64,000 nucleotides of DNA from Vicinamibacteria bacterium. GTDB taxonomy: Bacteria > Acidobacteriota > Vicinamibacteria > Marinacidobacterales > Marinacidobacteraceae. The stretch covers positions 96,001-160,000 of the forward strand of contig CAXXLQ010000004.1 of NCBI GenBank assembly GCA_963668695.2, in the 5' to 3' direction. Positions 13-27,461 of the stretch are shown in pieces. Position numbers and translations under genes: made by a program. How positions within the stretch are numbered: position 1 is the stretch's first letter; each line of letters opens with the position of its first letter. Below the pieces are notes generated by a model. It was not told the origin of the DNA. It searched no databases and saw only the letters and a list, made by a program, of their open reading frames with translations.

Positions 13-715
13 TAGCCTGTGGATAGAGTGGCGTGAGCACCGAGACCGGCGAGGCCCAGTTCTCCCGGTGGGGCCAGTTCTCCCGGTGGGGGCCCGGCTG
101 ACAAGGCGCGCGAGGGAGGAGCCCCCACCGGGAGAACTGGCCCGAGGGTATTCCGACCGAAGCGTAACGATGAGCAAAGCGAAGCGGAGTGGTTCAGCCG
201 GGATGCATCGCCGGTCGCTTCCGGAGCGGGGCGCAAGCACCGCGGAGACCCCGGAGCGAGAGGGACGGGGGACGGGGACACCCGGCCCCCATCTCTCTTG
301 GCTCGGGCTTCCGGAGCGGGGCGCGAGCACCGCGGAGACCCCGGAGCGGAAGGGACGGGGGGCGGGGTCACCCGACCACCATCCCTCTTGGCTCGGGCTT
401 CCGGAGCGGGGCGCGAGCACCGCGGAGACCCCGGAGCGGAAGGGACGGGGGGCGGGGTCACCCGACCACCATCCCTTCTGGCTCGGGCTTCCGGAGCGGG
501 GCGCGAGCACCGCGGAGACCCCGGAGCGGAAGGGATGGGGGACGGGGACACCCGGCCCCCATCTCTCTTGGCTCGGGCTTCCGGAGCGGGGCTCGGGCTT
601 CCGGAGCGGGGCGCGAGCACCGCGGAGACCCCGGAGCGAGAGGGACGGGGGACGGGTCCACCCGGCCCCCATCCCTCTTGACTCGGGAATGCCGCGTGAC
701 TTTGTCCACAGGCGG
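13..715. mobile_element. MITE-like element (CAGCCTGTGG-type ends) carrying an internal 90-bp tandem array
   Basis: Left end ttag|TAGCCTGTGGATAGAG, right end CTTTGTCCACAGGCGG|ctca. Positions 13-212 closely match the copies at 37955-38151 and 62019-62269. Confidence 0.75.
218..690. repeat. Tandem array of about five 90-bp units
   Basis: CCGGAGCGGGGC recurs at 221, 311, 401, 491 and 581, then at 601 after a 20-bp duplication. Each unit has a GC-rich hairpin-like variable half. Confidence 0.9.
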
Positions 716-11390: not shown

Positions 11391-11623
11391 CAGCCTGTGG
11401 TGAAACCCGGGTGAGCGCCGAGGCCGGTGAGGCCCAGTTCTCCCGGTGGGGCCAGTTCTCCCGGTGGGGGCCCGGCTGACAAGGCGCGTGAGGGAGGAGC
11501 CCCCACCGGGAGAACTGGCCCGGGTGTATTTCGACCGAAACGCAACGCAGAACGCAGCGAAGCGGAGTGGTTCAGCCGGGATGGATCGCCGGGCGAACGC
11601 CGTCTGGGTTTCATCACAGGCTG
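11391..11623. mobile_element. MITE (main family)
   Basis: TTAA|CAGCCTGTGGTGAAACCC...GGGTTTCATCACAGGCTG|TTAA; shares its left TTAA with the previous element. Confidence 0.85.
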
Positions 11624-16698: not shown

Positions 16699-17736
16699 AT
16701 GAGTCGCCGAACATCGATCGCAGTGCTGGCCCTCGGGCTCACGTTGCTTTGGCCCGGATCACGCCTCGCCGCCCAGATCCCAGGCCTCCTGCTGAACGAG
16801 GCCGGTGAGGAGATCGTCGCCACCTTCTCGATCGTCGCGCGCGATCCAGGCACGGGAGAGCTGGGAGTCGCCGTGCAGTCGCGGGCGTTTCGCGCCGGAG
16901 CCATCGTTTCGTACGCCAAGGCGGGGGTCGGGGCGATCGCGACCCAGGCGGCGGCCAACCAGACCTACGGGCCGCGCGGGCTGGAACTCCTGGAGCTGGG
17001 GCTCTCGCCGGACGAGGTGGTCGAGCACCTGACCGGCTCGGATCCGGGGCGTGACCGCCGCCAGCTCGCCGTCATCGACGACCAGGGCCGGGTCCGGGCC
17101 TACACGGGATCGGCAACCAGCGCCTGGGCGGGACACCTCGAGGGCGAGAACTTCTCGGCTCAGGGCAACATCCTGGCTGGGGAAGCGGTGGTGCAGGCGA
17201 TGGCGGAGGCGTTCGAGGCGTCCGAGGGTCCGCTCGCACTTCGTCTGATGGACGCCCTCGATGCCGGCCAGGCCGCCGGGGGCGACGCGCGCGGCAAGCA
17301 GGCTGGCGGGGTTTTGGTGGTGAAGCCGATCGGCAACTCCGGCCGGACCACCCGGACCAGCGACCGCTGGGTGGACGTGCGCGTGGACGACCATGCCGAG
17401 CCGTTCAAGGAGCTGCGCCGCCTGGTCAACATGTCGGTTTCGCGAATTCACGCGAGCGAAGCCCGGACGCTGGCCGCGGAGGGCCGCTTCGACGAAGCCG
17501 TGGCGGCGCAGCAGGAAGCGATCGCGATCGTTCCCGGGGAGGATCAGCTCATCTACGGGCTGGCCCGGCTGTACGCCCGCGCGGGCGACGCCGCGGGCGC
17601 GGTGGCGACGCTCAAGCAAGCCATCGAAATCGACGCGCGCTGGCGAGGGCTGGCGGCGTCACAGGCCGACTTCGACAACATCCGCGATAACGCGGAGTTC
17701 CAGAGACTGCTTAACTCCAAAGGACCCCTGTCATGA
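16699..17736 (+). CDS. DUF1028 (Ntn-hydrolase-like) exported protein with C-terminal TPR-like repeats
   Basis: Signal peptide; TFSIVARD, GVAVQS, ATQA, QGNIL, AGGDARG and RVDDH motifs; helical TPR-like tail. Confidence 0.85.
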   Translation: MSRRTSIAVLALGLTLLWPGSRLAAQIPGLLLNEAGEEIVATFSIVARDPGTGELGVAVQSRAFRAGAIVSYAKAGVGAIATQAAANQTYGPRGLELLELGLSPDEVVEHLTGSDPGRDRRQLAVIDDQGRVRAYTGSATSAWAGHLEGENFSAQGNILAGEAVVQAMAEAFEASEGPLALRLMDALDAGQAAGGDARGKQAGGVLVVKPIGNSGRTTRTSDRWVDVRVDDHAEPFKELRRLVNMSVSRIHASEARTLAAEGRFDEAVAAQQEAIAIVPGEDQLIYGLARLYARAGDAAGAVATLKQAIEIDARWRGLAASQADFDNIRDNAEFQRLLNSKGPLS

Positions 17737-18254
17737 ACTATCGCCGAATCCCGCTGCTGTTCGCCCTGGCGCTGCTCCCGGGTTGCGCTGCCGACCCGGC
17801 CCCACCGGAGGCGACTGCCCCGGATGCCCCAAGTGCCCAGAATGCCCCGGATGCCCAGAATGCCCCGGATGCCCGAGAGCGGCACTACCTCAACCCCCGC
17901 TCGGCGGGAGACCCCGACGTGCCGCCCTTCAGCGGCGGCGTGATGGTGGGCGACACCTTCTACGTTGCGGGAACGATCGGGCTGGGCCCCGACCAGACGG
18001 TACCCGAAACCGCCCAGGAGGAGGCTCGCATCGTCCTCACCAACGTGCAAAACACCCTGGAGGCGGCCGGGCTGACTATGGACGACCTGGTGTCGGTTCA
18101 GGTCTACGCCTCGGATGTCGGGGACTATGACGCCTTCAACGAGGTCTATCGCACGTTCTTCACCCAGGAATATCCGGCGCGGGCATTCCTGGGTTCGGGC
18201 ACGTTGCTCTTCGGGGCGCGGTTCGAGGTGCTGGGGTTCGCGGTCAAGCGCTAG
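17733..18254 (+). CDS. RidA/YjgF/UK114 family protein with lipoprotein signal
   Basis: PFSGG, AFNEVY, YPARA and FEV motifs; lipobox LPGC; ATGA overlap with the upstream gene. Confidence 0.85.
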   Translation: MNYRRIPLLFALALLPGCAADPAPPEATAPDAPSAQNAPDAQNAPDARERHYLNPRSAGDPDVPPFSGGVMVGDTFYVAGTIGLGPDQTVPETAQEEARIVLTNVQNTLEAAGLTMDDLVSVQVYASDVGDYDAFNEVYRTFFTQEYPARAFLGSGTLLFGARFEVLGFAVKR

Positions 18255-18329
18255 GGCCGCTCGGAACACAGTCTCAGATTCGCGGTGCGCGTTCGTCCGC
18301 CTCCGGCGGACGATGCCGGCCGGACTCCC

Positions 18330-18413
18330 CCGCGCGCCTTGTCAGCCGGGCGCCTCGCCCCCACCGGGAGAACTGGCCGCGCTCGGCGCTCACCCGGGTT
18401 CCACCACCGGCGG
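18330..18413. mobile_element. Partial MITE overlapping the 3' end of the GH3 gene
   Basis: CGCGCGCCTTGTCAGCCGGG...CTCGGCGCTCACCCGGGTTCCACCACCGGCGG matches the family right end; left boundary unclear. Confidence 0.65.
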
Positions 18414-20003
18414 TTCCCCCTCTTCCCAGAGGCGCGGGTAGAAGGGCTGGAACTTGAACTGGGAGTCAACGTGGGCTGAGCCTCCACCGGAGGCGCGCGG
18501 AAGGAAGTCCGAGAGCTCAAGGGTTGAGCAGCGGACTCCACCGAGCCGGCGGCTCGCACGCTTGGCGCGGTATTCGAGGTTCTGATTCCCGAGAAGTTCA
18601 TCGAGCCGCTCGGGGAGGCCCTCGGGGAGGCCCTCGGGCAGGCCGCCGGGCTCGCGCGACGCCGGGCGGACCGCCGCGAGGTGGTAGCAGGGAAGCGCAT
18701 CTCCTGCGGGGTTCGAAGGAAAGAGCGCGAGCCAGAAACGCTTCCGGAGTCCCGGGAACTCGCAGTCCAGCGCCGAGAACGCGCGCTCAACGTGCCCGGC
18801 GGTGAGCTTTTCCCCGGTGAAGGACCAACCCAGGCCTCGCCGGCGGACAAAACGGAGATCCGGATGTCCGCCGACGAAGCGCGCGACCCGAAAAAGATCC
18901 CCGGTCGCGTAGCGCCGGAGGCCGAAACCGTGGCTCACCACCATTTCGTACGTCTCCCCCGGCCGCAGGTCGCTGGCGCCCAAGAGGCTTGCCTCGGATC
19001 CCAGGCTTGCCTCGGATCCCGGCTCGAGGAACTCGTAGAAGACGCCGGGTGCGGCCGGTAGGAACGCCGTCTCTCGCTCCCGGTAGTCGGGAACGGTCTC
19101 GATCGTCTCGGTGGACATCGAATACATCGGCTCCCGGGTGAAACGCGATGCGGGGAGGCGGCGGTCGAGCCGCTGCAGAAACGGACCCACCGCGCCTCCG
19201 GTCCAGCAGACGTAGGTCGTGACGCCGGGCGCCCAGGCCGTGATCGGCAGTGGCTCGGGACTTTCCGCCACCCGGAGGAGCCGCTTCCGCGATCCCATCG
19301 AAGCGAGCTTCCGGAGGAGCCGCCAGACGGACGGGTGCAGGCGCTCAGGTTCCCGGACGACCCGCCGAACGAGCGCGGAAGCGTTCTCCCAATCGGCGTC
19401 GAGCTCTTCGAAGAACCCGCTCAGCGTGGAGGGGTTCGTTGCGTAGAGGACTCCCGGATTCGACAAGGTGAGGACCAGGAGACGAAGCGCGGCCGCGCCG
19501 TACTGCTCTTTCAGATCCTTAAGCGCCGGATCCGACTGCGCCCGGTAGGGCGCCTGCAGCAGGATGAACCACGGAGGCGCGCGGCGCTCGCTGACGAGCA
19601 ACCAGCTCAGCGAGCGATCCGGATCGAGAGCGCCGAAGACGTAGAGGCTGGGACGCCGGATCCGCCGGCGCGCGACGAGGCGAAGCATCCCGTCCACGAA
19701 AACGCCGCGGGTCGCCGAGAGCCGCTGTCGCGGGTACGCGACGCGCTTGGGCTCGCCCGAGGTGCCGGAGGTGAGCGCCACGGGGGTCCCCGCCCCGTCA
19801 CCCGAATCCGCGGAAGGCAGTTCCCGGGTGAGCGGCGTCGCGGGGGTGATTCCAAAGCGCCGCCGCAGCCGCCTTTCCCGGAGCGGATGGATCGTCAGAC
19901 GTACGCGGTGGCGAAGGACGGCCGCCCGCCCCGCCAGCCGCAGCACGAGTGCGATCGCTGCGCGTCCGAGGTCATTCGCGAGGCCCCGGGCCTCGCGGCT
20001 CAT
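18390..20003 (-). CDS. GH3-family acyl-adenylate/amide ligase
   Basis: GH3-type motifs TSGTSGEPK, YSMSTE, FYEF, YATGD and GEK. ATG 20003; the further upstream ORF extension is MITE sequence. Confidence 0.8.
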   Translation of the reverse strand: MSREARGLANDLGRAAIALVLRLAGRAAVLRHRVRLTIHPLRERRLRRRFGITPATPLTRELPSADSGDGAGTPVALTSGTSGEPKRVAYPRQRLSATRGVFVDGMLRLVARRRIRRPSLYVFGALDPDRSLSWLLVSERRAPPWFILLQAPYRAQSDPALKDLKEQYGAAALRLLVLTLSNPGVLYATNPSTLSGFFEELDADWENASALVRRVVREPERLHPSVWRLLRKLASMGSRKRLLRVAESPEPLPITAWAPGVTTYVCWTGGAVGPFLQRLDRRLPASRFTREPMYSMSTETIETVPDYRERETAFLPAAPGVFYEFLEPGSEASLGSEASLLGASDLRPGETYEMVVSHGFGLRRYATGDLFRVARFVGGHPDLRFVRRRGLGWSFTGEKLTAGHVERAFSALDCEFPGLRKRFWLALFPSNPAGDALPCYHLAAVRPASREPGGLPEGLPEGLPERLDELLGNQNLEYRAKRASRRLGGVRCSTLELSDFLPRASGGGSAHVDSQFKFQPFYPRLWEEGEPPVVEPG

Positions 20004-20030
20004 CGGGGTCGAACTTGGGGCCGAACTTGG

Positions 20031-20262
20031 CCGCCGGTGGACAGAGCCAGGCGGCCCAGTTCTCCCGGTGGGGGCTCGGCCGGCGATCCATCCCGGCTGA
20101 GCGCTGCGCCCCACTTCGCTCGTCGTTGCGCATCGGTCGAAATAACCCGGGCCAGTTCTCCCGGTGGGGGCTCCTCCCTCGCGCGCCTCGTCAGCCGGGC
20201 GCCTCGCCCCCACCGGGAGAACTGGCCGGCCTCGGCGCTCACCTTGCTCTGACCACAGGCAC
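20031..20262. mobile_element. MITE inserted in the last codons of the condensation-like gene
   Basis: ttgg|CCGCCGGTGGACAGAG...CTCTGACCACAGGCAC|ccag; the interior matches other copies in reverse orientation. Confidence 0.8.
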
Positions 20263-21537
20263 CCAGGGCTGTCCGGACCGGACGAACGGCGGATCAACCA
20301 GGGGGGCCACAAAGGCGGCAGCGATGAAGTCAATGTCTTCCTCGCGGAGGAGGGCCGGGTCCCAGGTGATCGTGACCACGGTCTGGTCGGCCTGGGACAT
20401 GGCGGCGAAGTAGAGCGGATGCTGCCGGTGGAGGCAGGCGATCACCTCCATGCCCGAAACGTCCTGGAGCACCGGCTCGTCGTCACCGGGCCAGTGCTCG
20501 AGGTGCGTGAACCCGGCGGTGCCGAAGTCCGCCCACGACCGGTAGATCCATCGGCGGAGCAGGGGGGCCGCGAAAGGAAACAGCGAAGCGGGAACTGGCA
20601 GAGAGGGAACTGCCCACTCTCCCGCCCGTTTCTTCCGGTACACCATCCGGCGAACCGAGCGGCAGCGCTCCAGAAAGGCCCGGCTCTTCACGGCAGAAAC
20701 CGGCTCGCGGTGAACCCGGATCCGCGACGCACCGTTCCCGAAGCCTCGGAGGCGATCCTCCCGCACGTTCACCGGCACCCAAAGCCCGATTCGATTCCCG
20801 GACAGCCCCTGATGCTCGTTCCAGGCCGCCAGCGCGTCGAGCGCCGCCGCCAGCAGGCAGTCGTTCCAGCGGAATCCACCGACCGTTTTGGACAGGGAGG
20901 CGAGAGGCTCGCGGGGCACGGACACCGTACGCCAGCAGCGGCTCGCCGAAGCAGGCCCGGGACGCGTCGCGAGCGCGGCCGAGGTTCCGGAATCCGGGTT
21001 GCGACGGGCGCCCTTCGGCGCCTCCAGCAGTTTGAGCGATCCGGTCTGGGGGCGCGGGGTCATGGTGTCCAGGCCGCGCGCCATCCGTAGCTGCCGCTGC
21101 ACGAACAGCAGCGTGCCGATCAGGTCCGCGGCGGCATGGTGCACCTGGGTGACGAGACTCCAGGAGGGAGGGTCTCCGGTGCCGAGCAGCATTTGCCTGA
21201 GCGGTGGCCCCTCCTCGAGGGGAAAGGGAATCTCGAGAAACTCCTGGATCCGGGCGACGCGCTCCCCCTCCGGAAAAACCCGGATCGCCAGGGATGGCGA
21301 AGCGCCGGGCCGCGGCTCCCACATCGGTACATCGAACGGCGGCCGGCAGAGCCGGCTCGTGGACACCGGGAACAACTCCCCAGCGCCCTGAGTCCCGGCG
21401 TACAGCGGCCCGAAGTCCGTCACCGCATGCGACGACCGGCCCAGATCGAGCACCAGGGCGTAGTCCAGGGGCCGCTCCGGCGAGTCCGCGAGCAGACACG
21501 CCAGGTCGGGCGTGGCGAGCGGGATGCGTCCGGTCAG
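20239..21537 (-). CDS. Stand-alone condensation-domain / CoA-dependent acyltransferase-like protein
   Basis: HHAAAD (HHxxxD) motif, WNDCLLAA and VPVNVR...FGN features of the C-domain/PapA5/WS-DGAT fold. Start uncertain; CTG 21537 overlaps the desaturase stop. Confidence 0.7.
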   Translation of the reverse strand: MTGRIPLATPDLACLLADSPERPLDYALVLDLGRSSHAVTDFGPLYAGTQGAGELFPVSTSRLCRPPFDVPMWEPRPGASPSLAIRVFPEGERVARIQEFLEIPFPLEEGPPLRQMLLGTGDPPSWSLVTQVHHAAADLIGTLLFVQRQLRMARGLDTMTPRPQTGSLKLLEAPKGARRNPDSGTSAALATRPGPASASRCWRTVSVPREPLASLSKTVGGFRWNDCLLAAALDALAAWNEHQGLSGNRIGLWVPVNVREDRLRGFGNGASRIRVHREPVSAVKSRAFLERCRSVRRMVYRKKRAGEWAVPSLPVPASLFPFAAPLLRRWIYRSWADFGTAGFTHLEHWPGDDEPVLQDVSGMEVIACLHRQHPLYFAAMSQADQTVVTITWDPALLREEDIDFIAAAFVAPLVDPPFVRSGQPWVPVVRAR

Positions 21538-22394
21538 ACGGCTTCCGGCGGCGCTTCGCGCCAGATGTCGCGGCGCGGAATCCGGCGCCGCTCGGGGTCG
21601 CGCTCGACAAGCTGGTGAAGCTCGACCCAGGCGAGATGCGGCCTCAGGTGGTGTTCTCGGTGCATGGACAGTCCGGAGGAAAACCAATACGCCAATCGGC
21701 CGAAGTAGTTGTGGGAGCGCGCCGCGGGATCACCGGTGGAATAGCCCTCATGGGTGAGATGGGCGAAAGGAATCCAGAGCACGAGCGACACGAGTACGCA
21801 GACCGGCAGGGTCCCCGACACCACCCGCCAAGGACCCACCAGCATGGCCACCAGAAGATAACAGGCCGCGATGGCCAGATAGTTCACCGCCAGATCGCGT
21901 CCATGGCCCGGAGGCAGTCCGCCGCGGCGGCGAATCCAGAAGAACCATTGGTGCGGCATCGCCACCGCCCGGAAGGGAAGCTGCCACTTATGGGGAGTGT
22001 CCAGGAACAGGTCCGGATCCTTCCCCGGCTCGTTGGTGTGGCGGTGGTGCTGGAGATGGGTGCCCCGGAAGTTCGTGAACGGAACGAGACAGGGCAAAAG
22101 AGCCAGCCGGCCCCAGAAGGCATTGGTTTTCCGCGACCGGCCGAGGAGGCCGTGGACGCCTTCGTGGGCCATTACGGTGCCGATGAAGGCCAGCCAGCTC
22201 CGGAACAGGATGTCCGCCGTCCAACCCCACCAGGTGGTGGGAACCACCAGCAACCCGGCGAAGCTCAACGCCAGGAGCGACACGATCACCGTGCGGCTGA
22301 GCAGGTGGACCCGGCGGACCGGCCAGCGACGAAGTCCGGCCGGAACGGAGGGAGAATGGACACCGGAAACCTCTTCGGACCGGTTTCGATTCAT
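21534..22394 (-). CDS. Membrane fatty acid desaturase family protein
   Basis: Three His boxes HEGVH, HLQHH and HREHH with TM segments. ATG 22394 (alternative GTG 22400). Confidence 0.88.
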   Translation of the reverse strand: MNRNRSEEVSGVHSPSVPAGLRRWPVRRVHLLSRTVIVSLLALSFAGLLVVPTTWWGWTADILFRSWLAFIGTVMAHEGVHGLLGRSRKTNAFWGRLALLPCLVPFTNFRGTHLQHHRHTNEPGKDPDLFLDTPHKWQLPFRAVAMPHQWFFWIRRRGGLPPGHGRDLAVNYLAIAACYLLVAMLVGPWRVVSGTLPVCVLVSLVLWIPFAHLTHEGYSTGDPAARSHNYFGRLAYWFSSGLSMHREHHLRPHLAWVELHQLVERDPERRRIPRRDIWREAPPEAV

Positions 22395-22430
22395 GGCCAC
22401 CTGCTACACCCCTTCCGATCTTGACTCTAG

Positions 22431-22628
22431 CAGCCTGTGGACAAGGTCACGCGGCGTTCGGCTGGCGATGCATCCCGGCTGAACCGCGCCTCTGTGAGGC
22501 GCTCATCGTTGCGCTTCGGTCGAAATACACCAGGTATTCCTCCCGCGCGCGCCTTGTCAGCCGGGCGCCTCGCCCCCACTGGGAGAACTGGCCAGCCTCG
22601 GCGCTCACGCCACTTTGTCCACAGGCTA
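22431..22628. mobile_element. MITE with perfect CTAG duplication
   Basis: CTAG|CAGCCTGTGGACAAGG...CTTTGTCCACAGGCTA|CTAG. Confidence 0.9.
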
Positions 22629-22712
22629 CTAGCATTCGCCATACCTCGAGACGGACCGCCGGCAGCCTGCGCGCCAGCGGCCGAATTCCTGGAAGAAGGA
22701 GGGAAGCGCTCC

Positions 22713-25700
22713 ATGCCCCCAGCACACTTTGACATCGGCTCCGCACCCGTGACCGGCGGGCGCCGGAAACGCGCGGCGTTGCTCGCCGCCGCCCTCCTGC
22801 TGGCCGCCGGTTTCGCCGCCGGCCAAACCGCGGATCCGGATACCGGGCCGGTTGCCACCGCGATCGAGGGACTGAAGCTCCGCGGGATCGGCCCCGCCCT
22901 GATGGGAGGCCGGATCGCCGACATCGCCGTGCACCCGCAGCGGCGCTCCACCTGGTACGTGGTGGTGGGTTCCGGCGGGCTCTGGAAGACCGAAAACAGC
23001 GGCACCACCTGGAAGCCGGTCTTCGACGAATACCCCTCCTACTCCATCGGCACCGTAGCCCTCGATCCTTCGAACCCGGAAGTCGTGTGGATCGGCACCG
23101 GAGAGAACGTGAGCGGACGCCACGTCGGCTGGGGCGACGGGGTGTATCGCAGCCGTAACGGCGGCGCCTCCTGGGAGCAGGTGGGCCTCGCCGGCTCGCA
23201 GCACATCGGCAAGATCCTGGTGGATCCGCGGGATGGGGACACCGTCCTGGTGGCCGCCGAGGGGCCGCTGTGGAACGGAGGGGGCGAACGCGGCGTGTAC
23301 CGGACCGAGGACGGCGGCGCCACCTGGACCCGCACGCTCGATCTCGGCCCCGACACCGGCGCGACCGATCTGGAGTTCGCTCCGGGCGACCCGGACACCG
23401 TCTATGCCGCGGCCTACCAGCGCCGGCGCCACGTGTGGTCGTTCCTGGCCGGAGGACCCGGCTCCGGGATCCACAAGTCCGACGACGGCGGCCGGACGTT
23501 CCGAAAGATCACGAAGGGCCTGCCGAAGGGCGACGTCGGGAAGATCGGCCTCGCGGTGACCCCGGCGGATCCCGGGCTCGTCTACGCGACCATCGAGGCC
23601 GACGAGGAGGAACGCGGCTTCTACCGCTCCGGGGACCGGGGCGAGAGCTGGGAGCGGCGCAGTCCCTACGTGTCGGGAGGCACCGGGCCGCACTACTACC
23701 AGGAGATCGAAGCGTCTCCGGCCGACCCGGACCTCGTGTACCAGATGGACGTCTTCTTCCACGTGACCCGGGACGGCGGCAAGACCTTCGACTACCTCGG
23801 CACCGGACGCGAAAAGCACAGCGACAACCACGCGATCTGGATCGATCCCGACGACCCCGGCCACCTGCTCGGCGGCACCGACTCGGGGCTTTACGAAACG
23901 TTCGACGAGGGAGTGACCTGGCGGCACTTCCCGAACATGCCCGTCTCCCAGTTCTACAAGGTGGCGCTCAGTAACGCCGAACCCTTCTACGACCTCCTCG
24001 GGGGGGCGCAGGACCTCGGGTCGGTGCACGGTCCTTCGCGCACCCAGAACAGGGAAGGGGTCCGGAACCGCGACTGGTACGTGCCGCTCGGGGCGGACGG
24101 CTACGGCGTGCAGATCGATCCGCGCGACCCGAACATCCTCTATCTGATGACCCAGCAGGGGAATCTCTATCGCGCCGACCGGCGGAGCGAGGAGACGCTG
24201 CACATCCAGCCGCTGGCCGCCCCCGGCGAACCACCGGAACGCTGGAACTGGGACTCCCCGATCCTGATCAGCCCGCACGACGCGGACCGGCTGTACTTCG
24301 GGTCGCAGCGAGTGTGGCGGAGTGAGAACCGGGGCCAGTCGTGGACCGCGGTCAGCGGGGACCTGACCACCGGCCGGAACCGCTACGAGCTCCCCTTCTA
24401 CGACCGGATCTGGAGCGTGGACGCCCTGCACGACACGGCGGCCATGTCCCGCTACGCGACGCTGACCGCGATCTCCGAGTCGCCGGTGGCGGAGGGCGTG
24501 CTCTTTACCGGAAGCGACGACGGACTGGTCCACGTCAGCACCGACGGCGGGGCGAACTGGAGCCGGGCGGCGGCGCTTCCGGAACTCCCGGCCCTCGCCT
24601 TCGTCAACGACGTCGAGGCGTCCCAGCACGACCCGGACACCGTGTTCGTGGTGGCCGACAACCACAAGATGGGCGACTTCCGGACGTATCTGTTCCGCAG
24701 CCGGGACCGCGGGGCGTCTTGGGAGTCCATCGCCGGGGACCTGCCCGACGGGACCATCGTCTGGGCCATCCAGCAGGATCACCGGGACCCGGACCTGCTG
24801 TTCCTGGCAGCCGAGTACGGGCTCCACGTCTCGTGGAACGGCGGGACGAACTGGGTGAAGCTGAAGGGCGCCCCGACGATTTCGTTCCGCGACGTGAAGG
24901 TGCAGCGGCGGGATGACGACCTGGTCGGCGCCACCTTCGGTCGGGGGTTTTACGTCCTGGACGACTACGCGCCGCTCCGGGAAATGGCCGCCGCGGTCCG
25001 CGCCGGCGAATCCACGCTCTTCCCGCTGCGCGACGCCTGGTGGTACGTGCCGTCGGTTCCGGCCCAGGCCCCGGGCCGTCCCACCCAGGGAAGCACCGCC
25101 TTCGTGGCGGACAACCCGCCGTTCGGCGCGGTGCTGACCTACTACCTCGCCGAGGACCTGAAGACGGCGAAGGAGGAGCGGCAGGCCGGCGAGAAGGAAG
25201 CGCGGGAGAGCGGCGCCGACATCCCCTTCCCCGGATTCGACACGCTCCGGATCGAGGAACTGGAAGAGGATCCCGCGGTGTTCGTGGTGATCCGGGACGC
25301 GAACGGAGCGCCGGTCCGGCGGGTCGCCGGATCCCCGAAGAAGGGCGTCCACCGGGTGGCCTGGGACCTCCGGGGCCCGGCGCCCAACCCGATCACCTTC
25401 CAGGAGCCGGGGTTCACCCCTCCCTGGGTGCGCCCGCCCCAGGGACCGCTCAGGGCGCCGGGCGAGTACTCCGCGCAGCTCGTCGCGGTGACCCGTGACG
25501 GCGCCCGCAACCTCGGGGAACCGCAGCGCTTCCGGGTCAAGCCCGTGCCGAACCTCCCCGAGGGCACCGATCCGGCGGCGGTGGCCGCCTTCCAGCAGGA
25601 GACGGCCAGCCTGCTCCGAGCGATCCACGGGGCCGCGGCCGAGGCCGGCCGGGTCCGGGAGCGGATCCGCCACCTGCGGGCGGCCCTCAAGGAAACCCCC

Positions 25701-26036
25701 CAGGCGGACGAAGCGCTCTTCGGGCGGATGGACGCCGTCCTCAGGACGCTCTCGGACCTGGAAGTCCGGCTGAACGGCGACCCCGCTCGCGGTTCGCGGA
25801 ACCACCCGGCGGCGCCCTCCATCCGGGAGCGGGTCGGGGGCATCGCGGGCGGCCACTGGGACACCCGCCAGACGCCCACCGAGACCCAGCGCGAAAGCCT
25901 CCGCATCGCGGCCGGGGAGTTCGAAGGACTGCGGGGCGAGTTGCGGTCGCTCGTCGACGAGGACCTGGCCGGGCTCGAAGCGGACCTCGAAGCCGCCGGG
26001 GCTCCGTGGACCCCGGGGAGGAAGATCCCGAGATAG
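22713..26036 (+). CDS. VPS10/sortilin-like BNR (Asp-box) repeat exported protein, putative glycosyl hydrolase
   Basis: Signal peptide, LRGIGPALMGGRI, many SxDxGxTW Asp-boxes, C-terminal coiled coil; GGAGG RBS before ATG 22713. Confidence 0.85.
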   Translation: MPPAHFDIGSAPVTGGRRKRAALLAAALLLAAGFAAGQTADPDTGPVATAIEGLKLRGIGPALMGGRIADIAVHPQRRSTWYVVVGSGGLWKTENSGTTWKPVFDEYPSYSIGTVALDPSNPEVVWIGTGENVSGRHVGWGDGVYRSRNGGASWEQVGLAGSQHIGKILVDPRDGDTVLVAAEGPLWNGGGERGVYRTEDGGATWTRTLDLGPDTGATDLEFAPGDPDTVYAAAYQRRRHVWSFLAGGPGSGIHKSDDGGRTFRKITKGLPKGDVGKIGLAVTPADPGLVYATIEADEEERGFYRSGDRGESWERRSPYVSGGTGPHYYQEIEASPADPDLVYQMDVFFHVTRDGGKTFDYLGTGREKHSDNHAIWIDPDDPGHLLGGTDSGLYETFDEGVTWRHFPNMPVSQFYKVALSNAEPFYDLLGGAQDLGSVHGPSRTQNREGVRNRDWYVPLGADGYGVQIDPRDPNILYLMTQQGNLYRADRRSEETLHIQPLAAPGEPPERWNWDSPILISPHDADRLYFGSQRVWRSENRGQSWTAVSGDLTTGRNRYELPFYDRIWSVDALHDTAAMSRYATLTAISESPVAEGVLFTGSDDGLVHVSTDGGANWSRAAALPELPALAFVNDVEASQHDPDTVFVVADNHKMGDFRTYLFRSRDRGASWESIAGDLPDGTIVWAIQQDHRDPDLLFLAAEYGLHVSWNGGTNWVKLKGAPTISFRDVKVQRRDDDLVGATFGRGFYVLDDYAPLREMAAAVRAGESTLFPLRDAWWYVPSVPAQAPGRPTQGSTAFVADNPPFGAVLTYYLAEDLKTAKEERQAGEKEARESGADIPFPGFDTLRIEELEEDPAVFVVIRDANGAPVRRVAGSPKKGVHRVAWDLRGPAPNPITFQEPGFTPPWVRPPQGPLRAPGEYSAQLVAVTRDGARNLGEPQRFRVKPVPNLPEGTDPAAVAAFQQETASLLRAIHGAAAEAGRVRERIRHLRAALKETPQADEALFGRMDAVLRTLSDLEVRLNGDPARGSRNHPAAPSIRERVGGIAGGHWDTRQTPTETQRESLRIAAGEFEGLRGELRSLVDEDLAGLEADLEAAGAPWTPGRKIPR

Positions 26037-27461
26037 GAACTCCACGCTCTGGCGGGGTCTGTTGCGGGGACTCCACGCTGGAGCGGGGCCGGCGGACGGG
26101 AACTCCACGCCGGAGCCGCGAAGCTCCACGCTGGAGCGGGGCCGGCGGGCGGGAACTCCACGCTGGAGCCGCCGAACTCCACGCTGTAGTGGGATCTGCC
26201 GGCGGGAACTCCACGCTGGAGCCGCCGAACTCCACGCTGGAGTGGGATCTGCTGGCGGGAACTCCACGCTGGAGCCGCCGAACTCCACGCTGGAGCAGGA
26301 TCTGTTGGCGGGAACTCCACGCTGGAGCCGCCGAACTCCACGCTGGAGCGGGATCTGCCGGCGGGAACTCCACGCTGGAGCCGCCGAACTCCACGCTGGA
26401 GCAGGATCTGCCAGCGGGAACTCCACGCTGGAGCCGCCGAACTCCACGCTGGAGCAGGATCTGTTGGCGAGAACTCCACGCTGGAGCCGCCGAACTCCAC
26501 GCTGGAGCAGGGATCTGTTGGCGGGAACTCCACGCTGGAGCCGCCGAACTCCACGCTGTGAGCGGGATCTGCTGGTGGGAACTCCACGCTGGAGCCGACG
26601 AACTCCACGCTGTAGCAGGATCTGCTGGCGGGAACTCCACGCTGGAGCCGCCGAACTCCACGCTGGAGCAGGATCTGTTGGCGGGAACTCCACGCTGGAG
26701 CCGCCGAACTCCACGCTGTAGCGGCATCTGTCGGCGGGAACTCCACGCTGGAGCCGCCGAACTCCACGCTGGAGCGGGATCTGCTCGGCGGGAACTCCAC
26801 GCTGGAGCCGCCGAACTCCACGCTGGAGCAGGATCTGTTGGCGGGAACTCCACGCTGGAGCCGCCGAACTCCACGCTGGAGCGGGTCTGCTGGCGGGAAC
26901 TCCACGCTGGAGCCGCCGAACTCCACGCTGGAGCGGGATCTGTTGGCGGGAACTCCACGCTGGAGCCGCCGAACTCCACGCTGGAGCGGGGTCTGTCGGC
27001 GGGAACTCCACGCTGTAGCCGCGGAACTCCACGCTGTAGCGGGATCTGTTGGCGGGAACTCCACGCTGGAGCCGCCGAACTCCACGCTGGAGCGGGATCT
27101 GTTGGGGAACTCCACGCTGGAGCCGCCGAACTCCACGCTGGAGCGGGGTCTGCTGGTGGGAACTCCACGCTGGAGCCGCGGAACTCCACGCTGGAGCGGG
27201 ATCTGTTGGCGGGAACTCCACGCTGGAGCCGCCGAACTCCACGCTGGAGCAGGATCTGTTGGCGGGAACTCCACGCTGGAGCCGCCGAACTCCACGCTGG
27301 AGCGGGGCCGGCGGACGGAACTCCACGCTGGAGGGGGTTCGGCGGATGGGGACTCCACGCTGGAGGAGGTGGAACTCCACGCTGGAGCCGCGAAGCTCCA
27401 CGCTGAAGCGGGTTCGGCGGGCGGGAACTCCACGCTGGAGCCGCGAAGCTCCACGCTGGAG
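26037..27461. repeat. Tandem array of ~54 GAACTCCACGCTGGAG cores in a ~53-bp dimeric unit
   Basis: Cores alternate with a 5-bp linker (CCGCC) and a ~16-bp linker (CRGGATCTGYYGGCGG). The array starts immediately after the TAG stop at 26036. Confidence 0.95.

What the first reader, a model, noticed from the sequence alone, without database searches (positions are those of the whole stretch)
20000..20266. MITE creates a 'bridge' ORF that could preserve translational coupling (site 1)
Removing the element plus one 4-bp target (236 bp) restores the acyltransferase C-terminus ...SGQPQVRPQVRPR* with its TGA overlapping the GH3 ATG (ATGA), so the insertion hit the last ~10 codons. With the element present the acyltransferase stops at 20239-20241 within GTGA. 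That GTG opens ORF 20242..20000 (80 aa), which crosses the element and ends at the original ATGA. Inference: a ribosome relay could keep the downstream gene coupled and make the insertion non-polar.
Basis: partly seen in the sequence, partly recalled or inferred. Interest (0 to 1): 0.72.

Follow-up and report, generated by a model that had tools for sequence, protein, structure and literature searches.

The report
Mobile repeat with a built-in bridging ORF
A small mobile repeat sits between two translationally coupled genes and leaves an open reading frame that spans it; this copy's frame may be chance, but the repeat family carries a similar end-to-end frame that is favoured inside operons.

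Summary
The ORF geometry is as described. The acyltransferase-like ORF stops at TGA 20241-20239 inside GTGA. An 80-codon ORF runs 20242..20000 and ends in the ATGA of the GH3-like gene.

All 12 relatives examined without the insert end ...PW(V/T/M/I)(R/Q)P(R/H)* with an NTGA overlap. The extra DNA is about 248 nt, not 236. There is no 4-bp duplication at this copy.

At this site the bridge is not above chance. 43 of 100 shuffles keep it, and it is the only bridge among 13 tight junctions in this orientation, against 0.73 expected. The GH3 frame is also open across the element. It holds 7 of the 10 substitutions at third codon positions.

Genome-wide, the family (1256 hits) inserts at TA in YTAR, often in stop codons. 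In the opposite orientation it carries a terminus-to-terminus ORF. That orientation dominates between co-directional genes (271:116 overall; 68:16 within 15 nt of a downstream start). The ORF is intact in 18 of 18 such copies against 87 of 158 elsewhere. The orientation bias recurs in a second species.

The closest precedent is the mycobacterial MIRU. Translation itself was not tested.

The parts
20239..21453 (-). Upstream gene, acyltransferase-like. It is 404 aa as called by my script; the mechanical ORF reaches 21687. Its last six residues (PVVRAR) and its stop are encoded by the inserted element.
   Evidence: ORF list and crude gene call. NCBIfam gives a weak match to wax ester/DGAT O-acyltransferase, E 6.7e-8, far below the curated cut-off. 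Pfam finds nothing.
20025..20262 (-). MITE copy, lying in the family's 'HMM orientation' on the minus strand. The family's canonical ends (TA + RCAGCC) are missing at both sides.
   Evidence: nhmmer hit at C4:116025-116262 (listing). blastn coverage profile. Inverted repeats 20049-20080 / 20201-20232 at 88% and 20150-20171 / 20206-20227 at 100%. Family ends.
20011..20258 (-). DNA that is extra relative to the empty sites of relatives, about 248 nt (3n+2). The exact borders are ambiguous by a few bases.
   Evidence: Comparison with L002/G004, L015/G008 and 10 other empty loci.
20239..20242 (-). GTGA: the new stop (TGA 20241-20239) of the upstream gene, overlapping the bridge start (GTG 20242-20240). 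It is element-borne.
   Evidence: GTGAGYG is present in 159 of 176 family copies.
20000..20242 (-). Bridge ORF of 80 codons (frame B). It ends in the ancestral ATGA.
   Evidence: No Pfam family. Kept in the second allele and in G001, where it is 48 codons long.
20000..20003 (-). ATGA: the GH3 start codon overlapping the stop of the bridge ORF. This is the ancestral stop/start overlap of the gene pair.
   Evidence: An NTGA overlap is present in 12 of 12 empty relatives.
18390..20003 (-). GH3-like gene of 537 aa. It is still under purifying selection after the insertion.
   Evidence: Pfam GH3_M E 2.6e-14. Window versus G001: 105 substitutions, 65 at third codon positions, 62 synonymous and 43 non-synonymous.
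20211..20213 (-). GTG in the GH3 frame (frame C), 26 nt after the new stop. It is a possible start of a GH3 protein with a 70-residue N-terminal extension.
   Evidence: List of frame C start codons. Frame C is open from 20333. Substitution phases.
20078..20173 (-). 96-nt internal module that is present here and absent from the orthologous copy in G001. Its placement is ambiguous because it lies within a direct repeat. It is in frame for all three reading frames.
   Evidence: Direct repeat D1 with spacing 96. Alignment.
20005..20028 (-). 12-nt tandem duplication (AAGTTCGGCCCC / AAGTTCGACCCC) next to the right end of the element. It is also present in G001.
20147..20164 (-). Small hairpin followed by GTTATTTCGA. 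It is terminator-like and is present only in this orientation of the element.
   Evidence: Consensus scan: 1 site found against 0.2 expected.
18358..18376 (+). Core of another copy of the family, just beyond the GH3 stop codon.

Best explanation
Site 1 is an old copy, with degenerate ends, of a very abundant miniature inverted-repeat element. The host is a sponge-type acidobacterial genome (MAG titles of relatives: Candidatus Marinacidobacterium, Vicinamibacteria).

Shown: the copy landed three codons before the stop of an acyltransferase-like gene. That gene's TGA overlapped the start of a GH3-like gene. The element now supplies six new C-terminal residues and a stop inside GTGA.

Shown: two frames stay open across the element. 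One is the 80-codon bridge that ends in the ancestral ATGA. The other is the GH3 frame itself.

Shown: GH3 has stayed under purifying selection since the insertion, so the insertion is tolerated.

Inferred: it is tolerated because ribosomes still translate across the element. This could be a stop/start relay through the bridge ORF, or initiation at the in-frame GTG 20213, which would give an N-terminally extended GH3. The data do not decide between the two at this site.

For the family as a whole the relay idea has real support, but in the other orientation. The element inserts at TA within YTAR, often in a TAA/TAG stop codon. The purine that begins its inverted repeat rebuilds the upstream stop. 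A GTG 9 nt later opens a 58-88-codon ORF that ends at the duplicated TAA/TAG, in the stop's original position before the downstream start.

Inferred: translating this ORF melts the long hairpin and delivers ribosomes to the downstream start. That would make such insertions non-polar.
For: Site 1:
- The ORF geometry is as described.
- The ancestral NTGA overlap is present in 12 of 12 empty relatives.
- The insert is shared by G001 and by the second allele. Both keep the bridge, across a 96-nt in-frame length difference.
- GH3 is still constrained: 62 synonymous against 43 non-synonymous changes.

Family structure:
- There are 1256 nhmmer hits, 416 of them full length. The ends are YTA|RCAGCC...GGCTGY|TAR.
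- The elements are intergenic: mean overlap with called genes is 3.5%.
- In 26 of 63 tight junctions the upstream stop codon is the element's terminal TAR.

Family tests:
- Bridges occur in 21 of 50 junctions in the co-directional orientation. Shuffles give 2.27 and the reverse-complement control gives 1 of 50.
- The frame after the left TAR is open in 166 of 173 copies. The TA-to-TA distance modulo 3 is 0 in 117, 1 in 46 and 2 in 10.
- Orientation between co-directional genes is 271:116. It is 68:16 within 15 nt of a downstream start and 26:5 when the element is flush with both genes.
- The terminus-to-terminus ORF is intact in 18 of 18 co-directional copies next to a start, against 87 of 158 elsewhere (Fisher 5.9e-5). 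With a looser definition it is 33 of 42 against 140 of 349 (2.2e-6).

Replication and relatives:
- In 1.2 Mb of a second species (G008), orientation is 59:30 overall, 14:1 near starts and 10:0 when flush.
- At 5 junctions, all 12 orthologous filled copies (G000, G001, G004) keep the ORF. Their lengths are 273/213, 255/237/255, 237/135/183 and 201/219 nt, all multiples of 3. Empty relatives show TAG + 1-2 nt + ATG.

RNA structure: the fold pairs the two ends, so the upstream stop and the downstream start lie at the base of a hairpin. MFE is -179.5 kcal/mol, z -9.7. For site 1 it is -160.6 kcal/mol, z -4.3.
Against: Against a selected bridge at site 1:
- 43 of 100 shuffles keep the bridge.
- The copy lies in the disfavoured orientation. 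Site 1 is the only bridge among 13 such tight junctions, with 0.73 expected.
- The ORF opened by the GTGA reaches the far end in only 37 of 159 copies.
- All six substitutions in the body of the element are non-synonymous in the bridge frame.
- Codon-usage scores are negative for all three frames.

Against the family-level reading:
- The gene calls are my own crude ones.
- The orientation bias also exists far from genes in G000: 104:38 when the element is more than 50 nt from the upstream stop and more than 60 nt from the downstream start. Something other than coupling therefore contributes.
- A second frame is open almost as often, in 160 of 173 copies.
- Length changes follow an 18-nt internal repeat, which keeps the frame for mechanical reasons.
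- The ORF enrichment in G008 goes the same way but is not significant: 10 of 13 against 47 of 92, p 0.135.
- Substitutions in orthologous copies show no clear codon periodicity: 224 events in the co-directional near-start class give p 0.17.
- One independent insertion at a tight junction in G004 lies in the other orientation.
- No ribosome, RNA-end or protein data were obtained.
Confidence: 0.5

Rival explanations
1. At site 1, GH3 is translated as an N-terminally extended protein. Ribosomes start at GTG 20213 in the GH3 frame, 26 nt after the new stop, and read straight through the element into GH3. The bridge ORF plays no part.
For: - The GH3 frame is open from 20333 through the whole element.
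- In-frame GTGs lie at 20213 and 20114.
- Ten substitution events separate the window from G001 or the second allele between the new stop and the ATG. Seven fall on third codon positions of the GH3 frame and are synonymous there (20235, 20193, 20181, 20058, 20049, 20031, 20016).
- All six events in the body of the element are of that kind, and all six are non-synonymous in the bridge frame.
- The third-position share, 7 of 10, resembles that of GH3 proper, 65 of 105.
- Repeat ORFs fused to the 5' ends of genes are reported for other bacterial repeats (PMC3184786, section 15 read).
Against: - There are only ten events. By my own binomial arithmetic p is about 0.02 for this phase and about 0.06 for any phase.
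- The plus-strand frame that shares the same third positions cannot be told apart by periodicity alone.
- The three events nearest the ATG are non-synonymous in this frame.
- Frame C has the worst codon-usage score of the three, LLR -17.4.
- No Pfam family matches the 70-residue extension.
- The downstream frame is open across the gap in 5 of 13 junctions of this orientation anyway.
- A similar all-synonymous run at another locus dissolved when more loci were added.
Confidence: 0.25
2. The open frames have no translational role. They are a by-product of G+C-rich, TA-poor repeat DNA, or a relic of a transposase frame. The orientation bias would then reflect transcription. In the site-1 orientation the RNA carries a hairpin followed by a U-rich run (GGGUKUAUUUCG) that could terminate or destabilise operon transcripts. 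On this reading GH3 at site 1 starts on its own at ATG 20003.
For: - A terminator-like hairpin with a T-run is found only in the site-1 orientation.
- The orientation bias extends to elements far from both genes in G000, 104:38.
- Two of the three frames are open in the favoured orientation, 166 and 160 of 173.
- The 18-nt repeat keeps length changes in frame for mechanical reasons.
- Shine-Dalgarno-like motifs are infrequent upstream of called starts: 28-44% against 18% in random 17-mers. Starts may therefore not depend on them.
Against: - Transcription alone does not explain why in-frame, open copies are enriched next to downstream starts: 18 of 18 against 87 of 158, and 33 of 42 against 140 of 349.
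- That enrichment is absent when the ORF points the other way: 4 of 10 and 6 of 13.
- In G008 there is no bias beyond 60 nt from a start (27:23) but a 14:1 bias within 15 nt.
- Elements flush with an upstream stop but far from the next start show no bias, 43:35.
- The hairpin scored by the scan has only 5 base pairs.
Confidence: 0.2
3. The coupling is kept by RNA structure, not by an ORF. The paired inverted repeats bring the upstream stop and the downstream start together at the base of a long hairpin, so a terminating ribosome can re-initiate across it.
For: The predicted folds pair the element's two ends. MFE is -179.5 kcal/mol with z -9.7 at junction L018, and -160.6 kcal/mol with z -4.3 at site 1.
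Against: The pairing works in both orientations. It therefore predicts neither the orientation bias nor the excess of in-frame open copies at junctions. No bacterial precedent was looked for or found in my searches.
Confidence: 0.05

Closest known systems
Mycobacterial interspersed repetitive units (MIRUs). Source: Supply et al. 1997, as described in the 2025 review PMC12548453. I read the passages of the review; I did not see the 1997 paper itself.
   Same: MIRUs are mobile intergenic repeats found inside operons. [quoted passage not shown] The review says this likely lets them insert with minimal effect on expression.
   Different: By my recollection, MIRUs are 40-100-bp direct tandem units without terminal inverted repeats. 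The review describes them as inserting at start codons, with the ORF at -4 spacing. The element here is 183-273 nt long. It has long inverted ends and a TA duplication in YTAR. It often sits in the upstream stop codon. Its ORF starts 9 nt after that stop and ends 0-12 nt before the next start.
IS630 / Tc1-mariner-type MITEs that target TA.
   Same: TA duplication inside YTAR, terminal inverted repeats, small size, hundreds of copies, and filled and empty sites among relatives. IS630-type transposase genes (DDE_3) are present in the genome.
   Different: No transposase-bearing element with the same ends was found. The IS630-type copies end in TA|GTGTGGTGTCC or TA|GTGTCGTGTCA and share only TGTGGTG with the MITE ends. 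Site 1 itself lacks the TA duplication.
Rickettsia palindromic elements, and ERIC/BOX-type repeats with ORFs fused to genes. Sources: reviews PMC10969869 (passages read) and PMC3184786 (section 15 read).
   Same: These are repeat elements whose open frames become part of host reading frames, extending 3' or 5' ends of genes. At site 1 the element supplies the last six codons and the stop of the upstream gene, and possibly an N-terminal extension of GH3.
   Different: Those cases are described as protein fusions. They are not described as separate relay ORFs between two genes. Neither review mentions stop codons or coupling: my term searches found 0 occurrences.
Translational coupling by termination-reinitiation at NTGA overlaps (review PMC12548453, passages read).
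   Same: The ancestral junction is an NTGA overlap in 12 of 12 empty relatives. This genome has 236 called gene pairs at -4 spacing. The site-1 bridge recreates a -4 overlap at both of its ends.
   Different: Here the coupling would have to pass through an extra ORF of 58-88 codons. Coupling itself was not measured.

Membership tests
MITE (non-autonomous inverted-repeat transposable element) | Terminal inverted repeats | tested here: met
   The family ends RCAGCC[T/G]GTGGTG[G/A]AAC ... GTTTCACCAC[A/C]GGCTGY are seen in 416 full-length hits. At site 1 the arms are 32 nt at 88%, plus partial outer arms.
MITE (non-autonomous inverted-repeat transposable element) | Target-site duplication | tested here: met
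   The family shows TA at both ends within YTAR. In the end logos, the base before the left TA is T in 53% and C in 39% of copies. The right-hand codon is TAG in 86 and TAA in 71 of 173 copies. The empty site CTAG is seen in relatives. This is NOT met for the site-1 copy, which has no TA and no 4-bp duplication.
MITE (non-autonomous inverted-repeat transposable element) | Small size, no transposase, high copy number | tested here: met
   TA-to-TA length is 173-274 nt. There are 1256 hits in 4.1 Mb. Pfam finds no family in the element ORFs.
MITE (non-autonomous inverted-repeat transposable element) | Presence/absence polymorphism at orthologous sites | tested here: met
   Site 1 is filled in G000 and G001 and empty in G004, G008, G006 and G010. 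Other junctions are filled or empty in different relatives.
MITE (non-autonomous inverted-repeat transposable element) | An autonomous partner with matching ends | tested here: not met
   Three DDE_3 loci were found (four matches). The two whose ends could be read have ends unlike the MITE's, and the third showed no inverted-repeat ends. Relatives were not searched for a partner.
MIRU-like repeat with a coupled ORF | The ORF points the same way as the flanking genes | tested here: met
   271:116 between co-directional genes and 26:5 at flush junctions in G000. 59:30 and 10:0 in G008. Site 1 is in the minority orientation.
MIRU-like repeat with a coupled ORF | The ORF's ends overlap or abut the neighbouring stop and start codons | tested here: inconclusive
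   In the family, the start lies +9 nt from the upstream stop in 148 of 173 ORFs found, and the stop lies 0-12 nt before the downstream start. Site 1 has true -4 overlaps at both ends.
MIRU-like repeat with a coupled ORF | The ORF is translated and the downstream gene depends on it | not testable with these tools
   The RNA runs gave only short contigs that break at the repeat. No ribosome or protein data were available.
Translationally coupled gene pair (acyltransferase-like / GH3-like) | Conserved stop/start overlap | tested here: met
   NTGA is present in 12 of 12 empty relatives, with three different start codons.
GH3 family (downstream gene) | Match to GH3 domain models above the curated cut-off | tested here: met
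   PF23571 GH3_M scores 53.5 bits against a cut-off of 23.6. This is the central domain only. No other GH3 domain model was reported.
WS/DGAT O-acyltransferase (upstream gene) | Match above the curated cut-off | tested here: not met
   TIGR02946 scores 31.8 bits against a cut-off of 309.95, at E 6.7e-8. 'Acyltransferase-like' is therefore only a lead.

The most novel reading that the evidence does not exclude
This MITE family is built to be translationally transparent inside operons. It targets the TA of TAA/TAG stop codons (YTAR). The purine that begins its inverted repeat rebuilds the upstream stop. A GTG 9 nt later opens an ORF that spans the whole element and ends at the duplicated stop, in its original place before the next start. 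Selection would then keep that ORF in frame and open wherever a coupled gene follows. On this reading a mobile element carries its own ribosome relay, and site 1 is an off-type copy that reached the same result through an element-borne GTGA.
Probability: 0.4. Interest if true: 0.8.

Novelty: new variant of a known kind. Interest (0 to 1): 0.6.

Why it matters
Insertions between tightly coupled genes should be polar, yet this genome tolerates dozens of them.

If the element's end-to-end ORF really carries ribosomes across, it would be a second, structurally different case beside the MIRUs. In both, a mobile repeat would lower its own cost by preserving translational coupling.

It would also explain how a repeat can reach more than 1000 copies in a 4-Mb genome that is about 82% coding by my gene calls.

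It gives a clean, testable design: orientation, the start codon, and frame shifts of +1 or +3.

Finally, it warns annotators that gene ends and starts next to such repeats may be element-borne.

Tried and rejected
- Rfam scan of 17000-23000 at E up to 1: no match.
- RNA evidence. Three metatranscriptome runs hold small parts of the stretch, but only as short Logan contigs that stop at the repeat. None bridges the element, so nothing can be said about co-transcription, RNA ends or expression.
- Metagenome scan with the site-1 junction 23-mer, to find more alleles. The three hits all lie in an unrelated aminotransferase-like gene, so they are chance matches and give no new alleles.
- Codon periodicity of substitutions in orthologous copies, as a test of translation. 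One locus gave 5 of 5 synonymous changes. Over six 20-kb regions the signal was weak: 75/67/82 by codon position, p 0.17. Several 'orthologues' were in fact independent insertions with 39-83 differences.
- Family-wide codon-position variability: frames 0 and 2 look alike, each with a synonymous fraction of 0.40.
- Search for an autonomous partner by pairing MITE ends 0.7-3 kb apart. The result was swamped by host genes lying between neighbouring MITEs.
- Codon-usage scoring of the three frames at site 1: all negative, so uninformative.
- +1 frameshift at AGG-TGA-G fusing the two genes: considered and dropped as unsupported. No test was run.
- Literature. There were no papers combining 'miniature inverted-repeat transposable', 'translational coupling' and 'stop codon'. 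There were none with the six terms, and none naming Marinacidobacterium. These searches cover only the held library.

Full report
**What is in the sequence**

- Read on the minus strand, the upstream ORF (21687..20239) ends ...SGQPWVPVVRAR*. Its TGA lies at 20241-20239 inside GTGA.
- GTG 20242 opens an 80-codon ORF that runs to TGA 20002-20000. That TGA overlaps ATG 20003 of the downstream ORF 20003..18390.
- The downstream protein carries the GH3 central domain, PF23571, at E 2.6e-14.
- The upstream protein has only a weak match to wax-ester/DGAT acyltransferases, E 6.7e-8 and far below the cut-off.
- A third fact was not in the finding. The GH3 frame itself is open through the whole element, as ORF 18390..20333.

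**The repeat**

- The 19-base core occurs 28 times in the window against 0.10 expected. It occurs 1613 times in the 4.1-Mb genome.
- A profile built from 39 long copies finds 1256 hits, 416 of them full length.
- The ends read YTA|RCAGCC[T/G]GTGGTG..AAC ... GTTTCACCAC.GGCTGY|TAR. That is a pair of inverted repeats with a TA duplication inside YTAR.
- This target rule is that of IS630/Tc1-type elements. I recall that rule from memory and did not retrieve it.
- IS630-type transposase genes are present. The two whose ends could be read differ from the MITE's and share only TGTGGTG with it. No autonomous partner was therefore identified.
- TA-to-TA lengths fall in classes of 183, 201, 219, 237, 255 and 273 nt. 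The 18-nt steps reflect a variable number of core repeats.

- A search with the GH3 protein returned 17 loci, all from acidobacterial MAGs.
- Of the 13 loci read at the junction, 12 lack the insert. All 12 end ...PW(V/T/M/I)(R/Q)P(R/H)* with the TGA overlapping an NTG: ATGA x2, GTGA x2, TTGA x8.
- The ancestral end was therefore ...SGQPWVRPR*. The element entered three codons before the stop.
- The extra DNA is about 244-248 nt (3n+2), including a 12-nt tandem duplication.
- This copy lacks the family's terminal RCA/TGY bases and the TA, so there is no 4-bp duplication.
- The insert is shared by G001 (91% GH3 identity) and by a second allele inside the same contig. It is absent from G004, G008, G006 and G010.

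**Is the site-1 bridge more than chance?**

- With the GTGA and the ATGA held fixed, 43 of 100 dinucleotide shuffles of the interior keep the bridge.
- The GTGA is part of the element, present in 159 of 176 copies. The ORF it opens reaches the far end in only 37 of those 159.
- Among 13 tight junctions with the element in this orientation, only site 1 has a bridge. 0.73 would be expected.
- In its favour, G001 keeps the bridge although it lacks a 96-nt module, which is an in-frame difference.
- GH3 is still under purifying selection, with 62 synonymous against 43 non-synonymous changes. Something therefore keeps it expressed.

**A rival at site 1**

- Ten substitution events separate the window from G001 or the second allele between the new stop and the ATG. 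Seven fall on third positions of the GH3 frame and are synonymous there.
- All six events in the body of the element are of that kind, and all six are non-synonymous in the bridge frame.
- An in-frame GTG lies at 20213, 26 nt after the new stop. GH3 may therefore now be made with a 70-residue extension.
- The sample is small. By my own binomial arithmetic p is about 0.02 for this phase and about 0.06 for any phase.
- Frame C scores worst for codon usage.
- A comparable run of synonymous changes at another locus did not hold up when more loci were added.

- I called genes with a crude codon-score script, giving 3192 genes and 82.5% coding.
- The elements are intergenic: mean overlap with called genes is 3.5%.
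- In 63 co-directional gene pairs the element or elements fill the gap to within 25 nt. In 26 of these the upstream stop codon is the element's own terminal TAA/TAG.
- In the orientation opposite to site 1 the sequence reads TAR CAG CCT GTG GTG AAA CCC...
- That frame is open in 166 of 173 copies with clear ends. The TA-to-TA distance is a multiple of three in 117 of those 173.
- Most copies therefore carry an ORF from a GTG at +9 to the right-hand TAA/TAG, 58-88 codons long.
- Bridges occur in 21 of 50 junctions of this orientation. Shuffles give 2.27 and a reverse-complement control gives 1 of 50.

**Signs of selection**

- Between co-directional genes the ORF-forward orientation outnumbers the other 271:116. 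The ratio is 68:16 when a gene start lies within 15 nt and 26:5 when the element is flush with both genes. It is 43:35 when the element is flush with a stop but far from the next start.
- The end-to-end ORF is intact in 18 of 18 ORF-forward copies next to a start, against 87 of 158 elsewhere (Fisher 5.9e-5).
- With looser criteria over 391 loci the figures are 33 of 42 against 140 of 349, p 2.2e-6.
- Copy age, judged by profile score per base, differs little between the classes.

**Replication and relatives**

- In 1.2 Mb of another species of the genus (G008), orientation is 59:30 overall. It is 14:1 near starts, 10:0 at flush junctions and 27:23 beyond 60 nt.
- ORF integrity there is 10 of 13 against 47 of 92. 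The direction is the same but it is not significant, p 0.135.
- At five junctions, all 12 orthologous filled copies in G000, G001 and G004 keep the ORF. Their lengths are 273/213, 255/237/255, 237/135/183 and 201/219 nt.
- Empty relatives show TAG + 1-2 nt + ATG. This confirms insertion into the stop codon of tightly spaced pairs.
- One junction carries an independent insertion in the other orientation in G004.

**Caveats**

- The gene calls are mine and are crude.
- A second frame is open nearly as often, in 160 of 173 copies.
- The 18-nt repeat keeps length changes in frame without any selection.
- In G000 the orientation bias also holds far from genes, 104:38.
- The site-1 orientation has a hairpin followed by a T-run that could act on transcripts.
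- RNA folds pair the two ends strongly. An ORF could therefore act by melting structure as much as by delivering ribosomes.
- No RNA-end, ribosome or protein data could be obtained.

**Comparison with what is known**

- A 2025 review of translational coupling says that MIRUs insert so that their ORF is coupled to the adjacent gene. It says this likely minimises the effect on expression, citing Supply et al. 1997 (PMC12548453, passages read).
- Reviews of bacterial repeats describe in-frame fusions of repeat ORFs with genes (PMC3184786 section 15; PMC10969869 passages). My term searches found no mention of stop codons or coupling in them.
- My library searches found no inverted-repeat MITE described with an end-to-end relay ORF. 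The library is not exhaustive.

**Verdict**

- At this copy the bridge is not distinguishable from chance, and an extended GH3 is an equally good reading.
- The general idea gains support at the family level, in the opposite orientation.
- It is a new variant of a known kind.

Noticed in passing
G000 contig C4: 13.6-148 kb against 3.774-3.914 Mb. The window's first ~52 kb are included.: The end of the contig repeats its beginning at 98.4-99.5% identity. The differences are mostly at third codon positions, and one 8-kb stretch is present in only one copy. This looks like two haplotypes or an over-circularised assembly. The search tool lists 9.34% contamination for this genome.
   Followed up: partly
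15 element copies inside that duplicated stretch (C4 34.5-134 kb): Between the two alleles, the MITE copies differ less than their 150-nt flanks: 5 of 2818 bases against 34 of 4200. Possible causes are constraint, gene conversion among copies, or polishing artefacts in repeats.
   Followed up: no
G000 C4:667050-668195 (L051:12050-13195): An IS630-type insertion sequence (DDE_3) sits in the CTAG between two abutting MITE copies. Its ends are TA|GTGTGGTGTCC. It has at least 14 copies at 93-99% identity in G001 and only this one in G000.
   Followed up: partly
Family-wide; for example window 56-92 and 11434-11470: The 18-nt core is tandemly repeated a variable number of times. This gives the element length classes of 183 + 18n nt.
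   Followed up: partly
Junction G000 C4:3165474-3165716 and its counterparts in G001 and G004: The same operon junction is empty in G001 (TAG C ATG) and filled in G000. In G004 it is filled by a different copy in the opposite orientation. The same stop codon has therefore been hit repeatedly.
   Followed up: partly
G004 counterpart of junction G000 C4:665555: The 'empty' site still reads TAGCAGCC directly before the downstream GTG start. This may be an excision footprint of the element.
   Followed up: no
window about 26036-27460: There are many staggered self-matches at steps of about 53 nt, with related arrays elsewhere in the genome. This is a long tandem repeat inside a very long ORF.
   Followed up: no
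L044-L046 (metagenome contigs): The 23-base site-1 junction pattern matches exactly inside an unrelated aminotransferase-like gene in three contigs. This is a reminder that such junction words are not unique.
   Followed up: yes
Whole genome G000: Shine-Dalgarno-like motifs precede only 28-44% of called starts, against 18% in random 17-mers. There are 236 called gene pairs at -4 spacing. Coupling may be unusually important in this organism.
   Followed up: no
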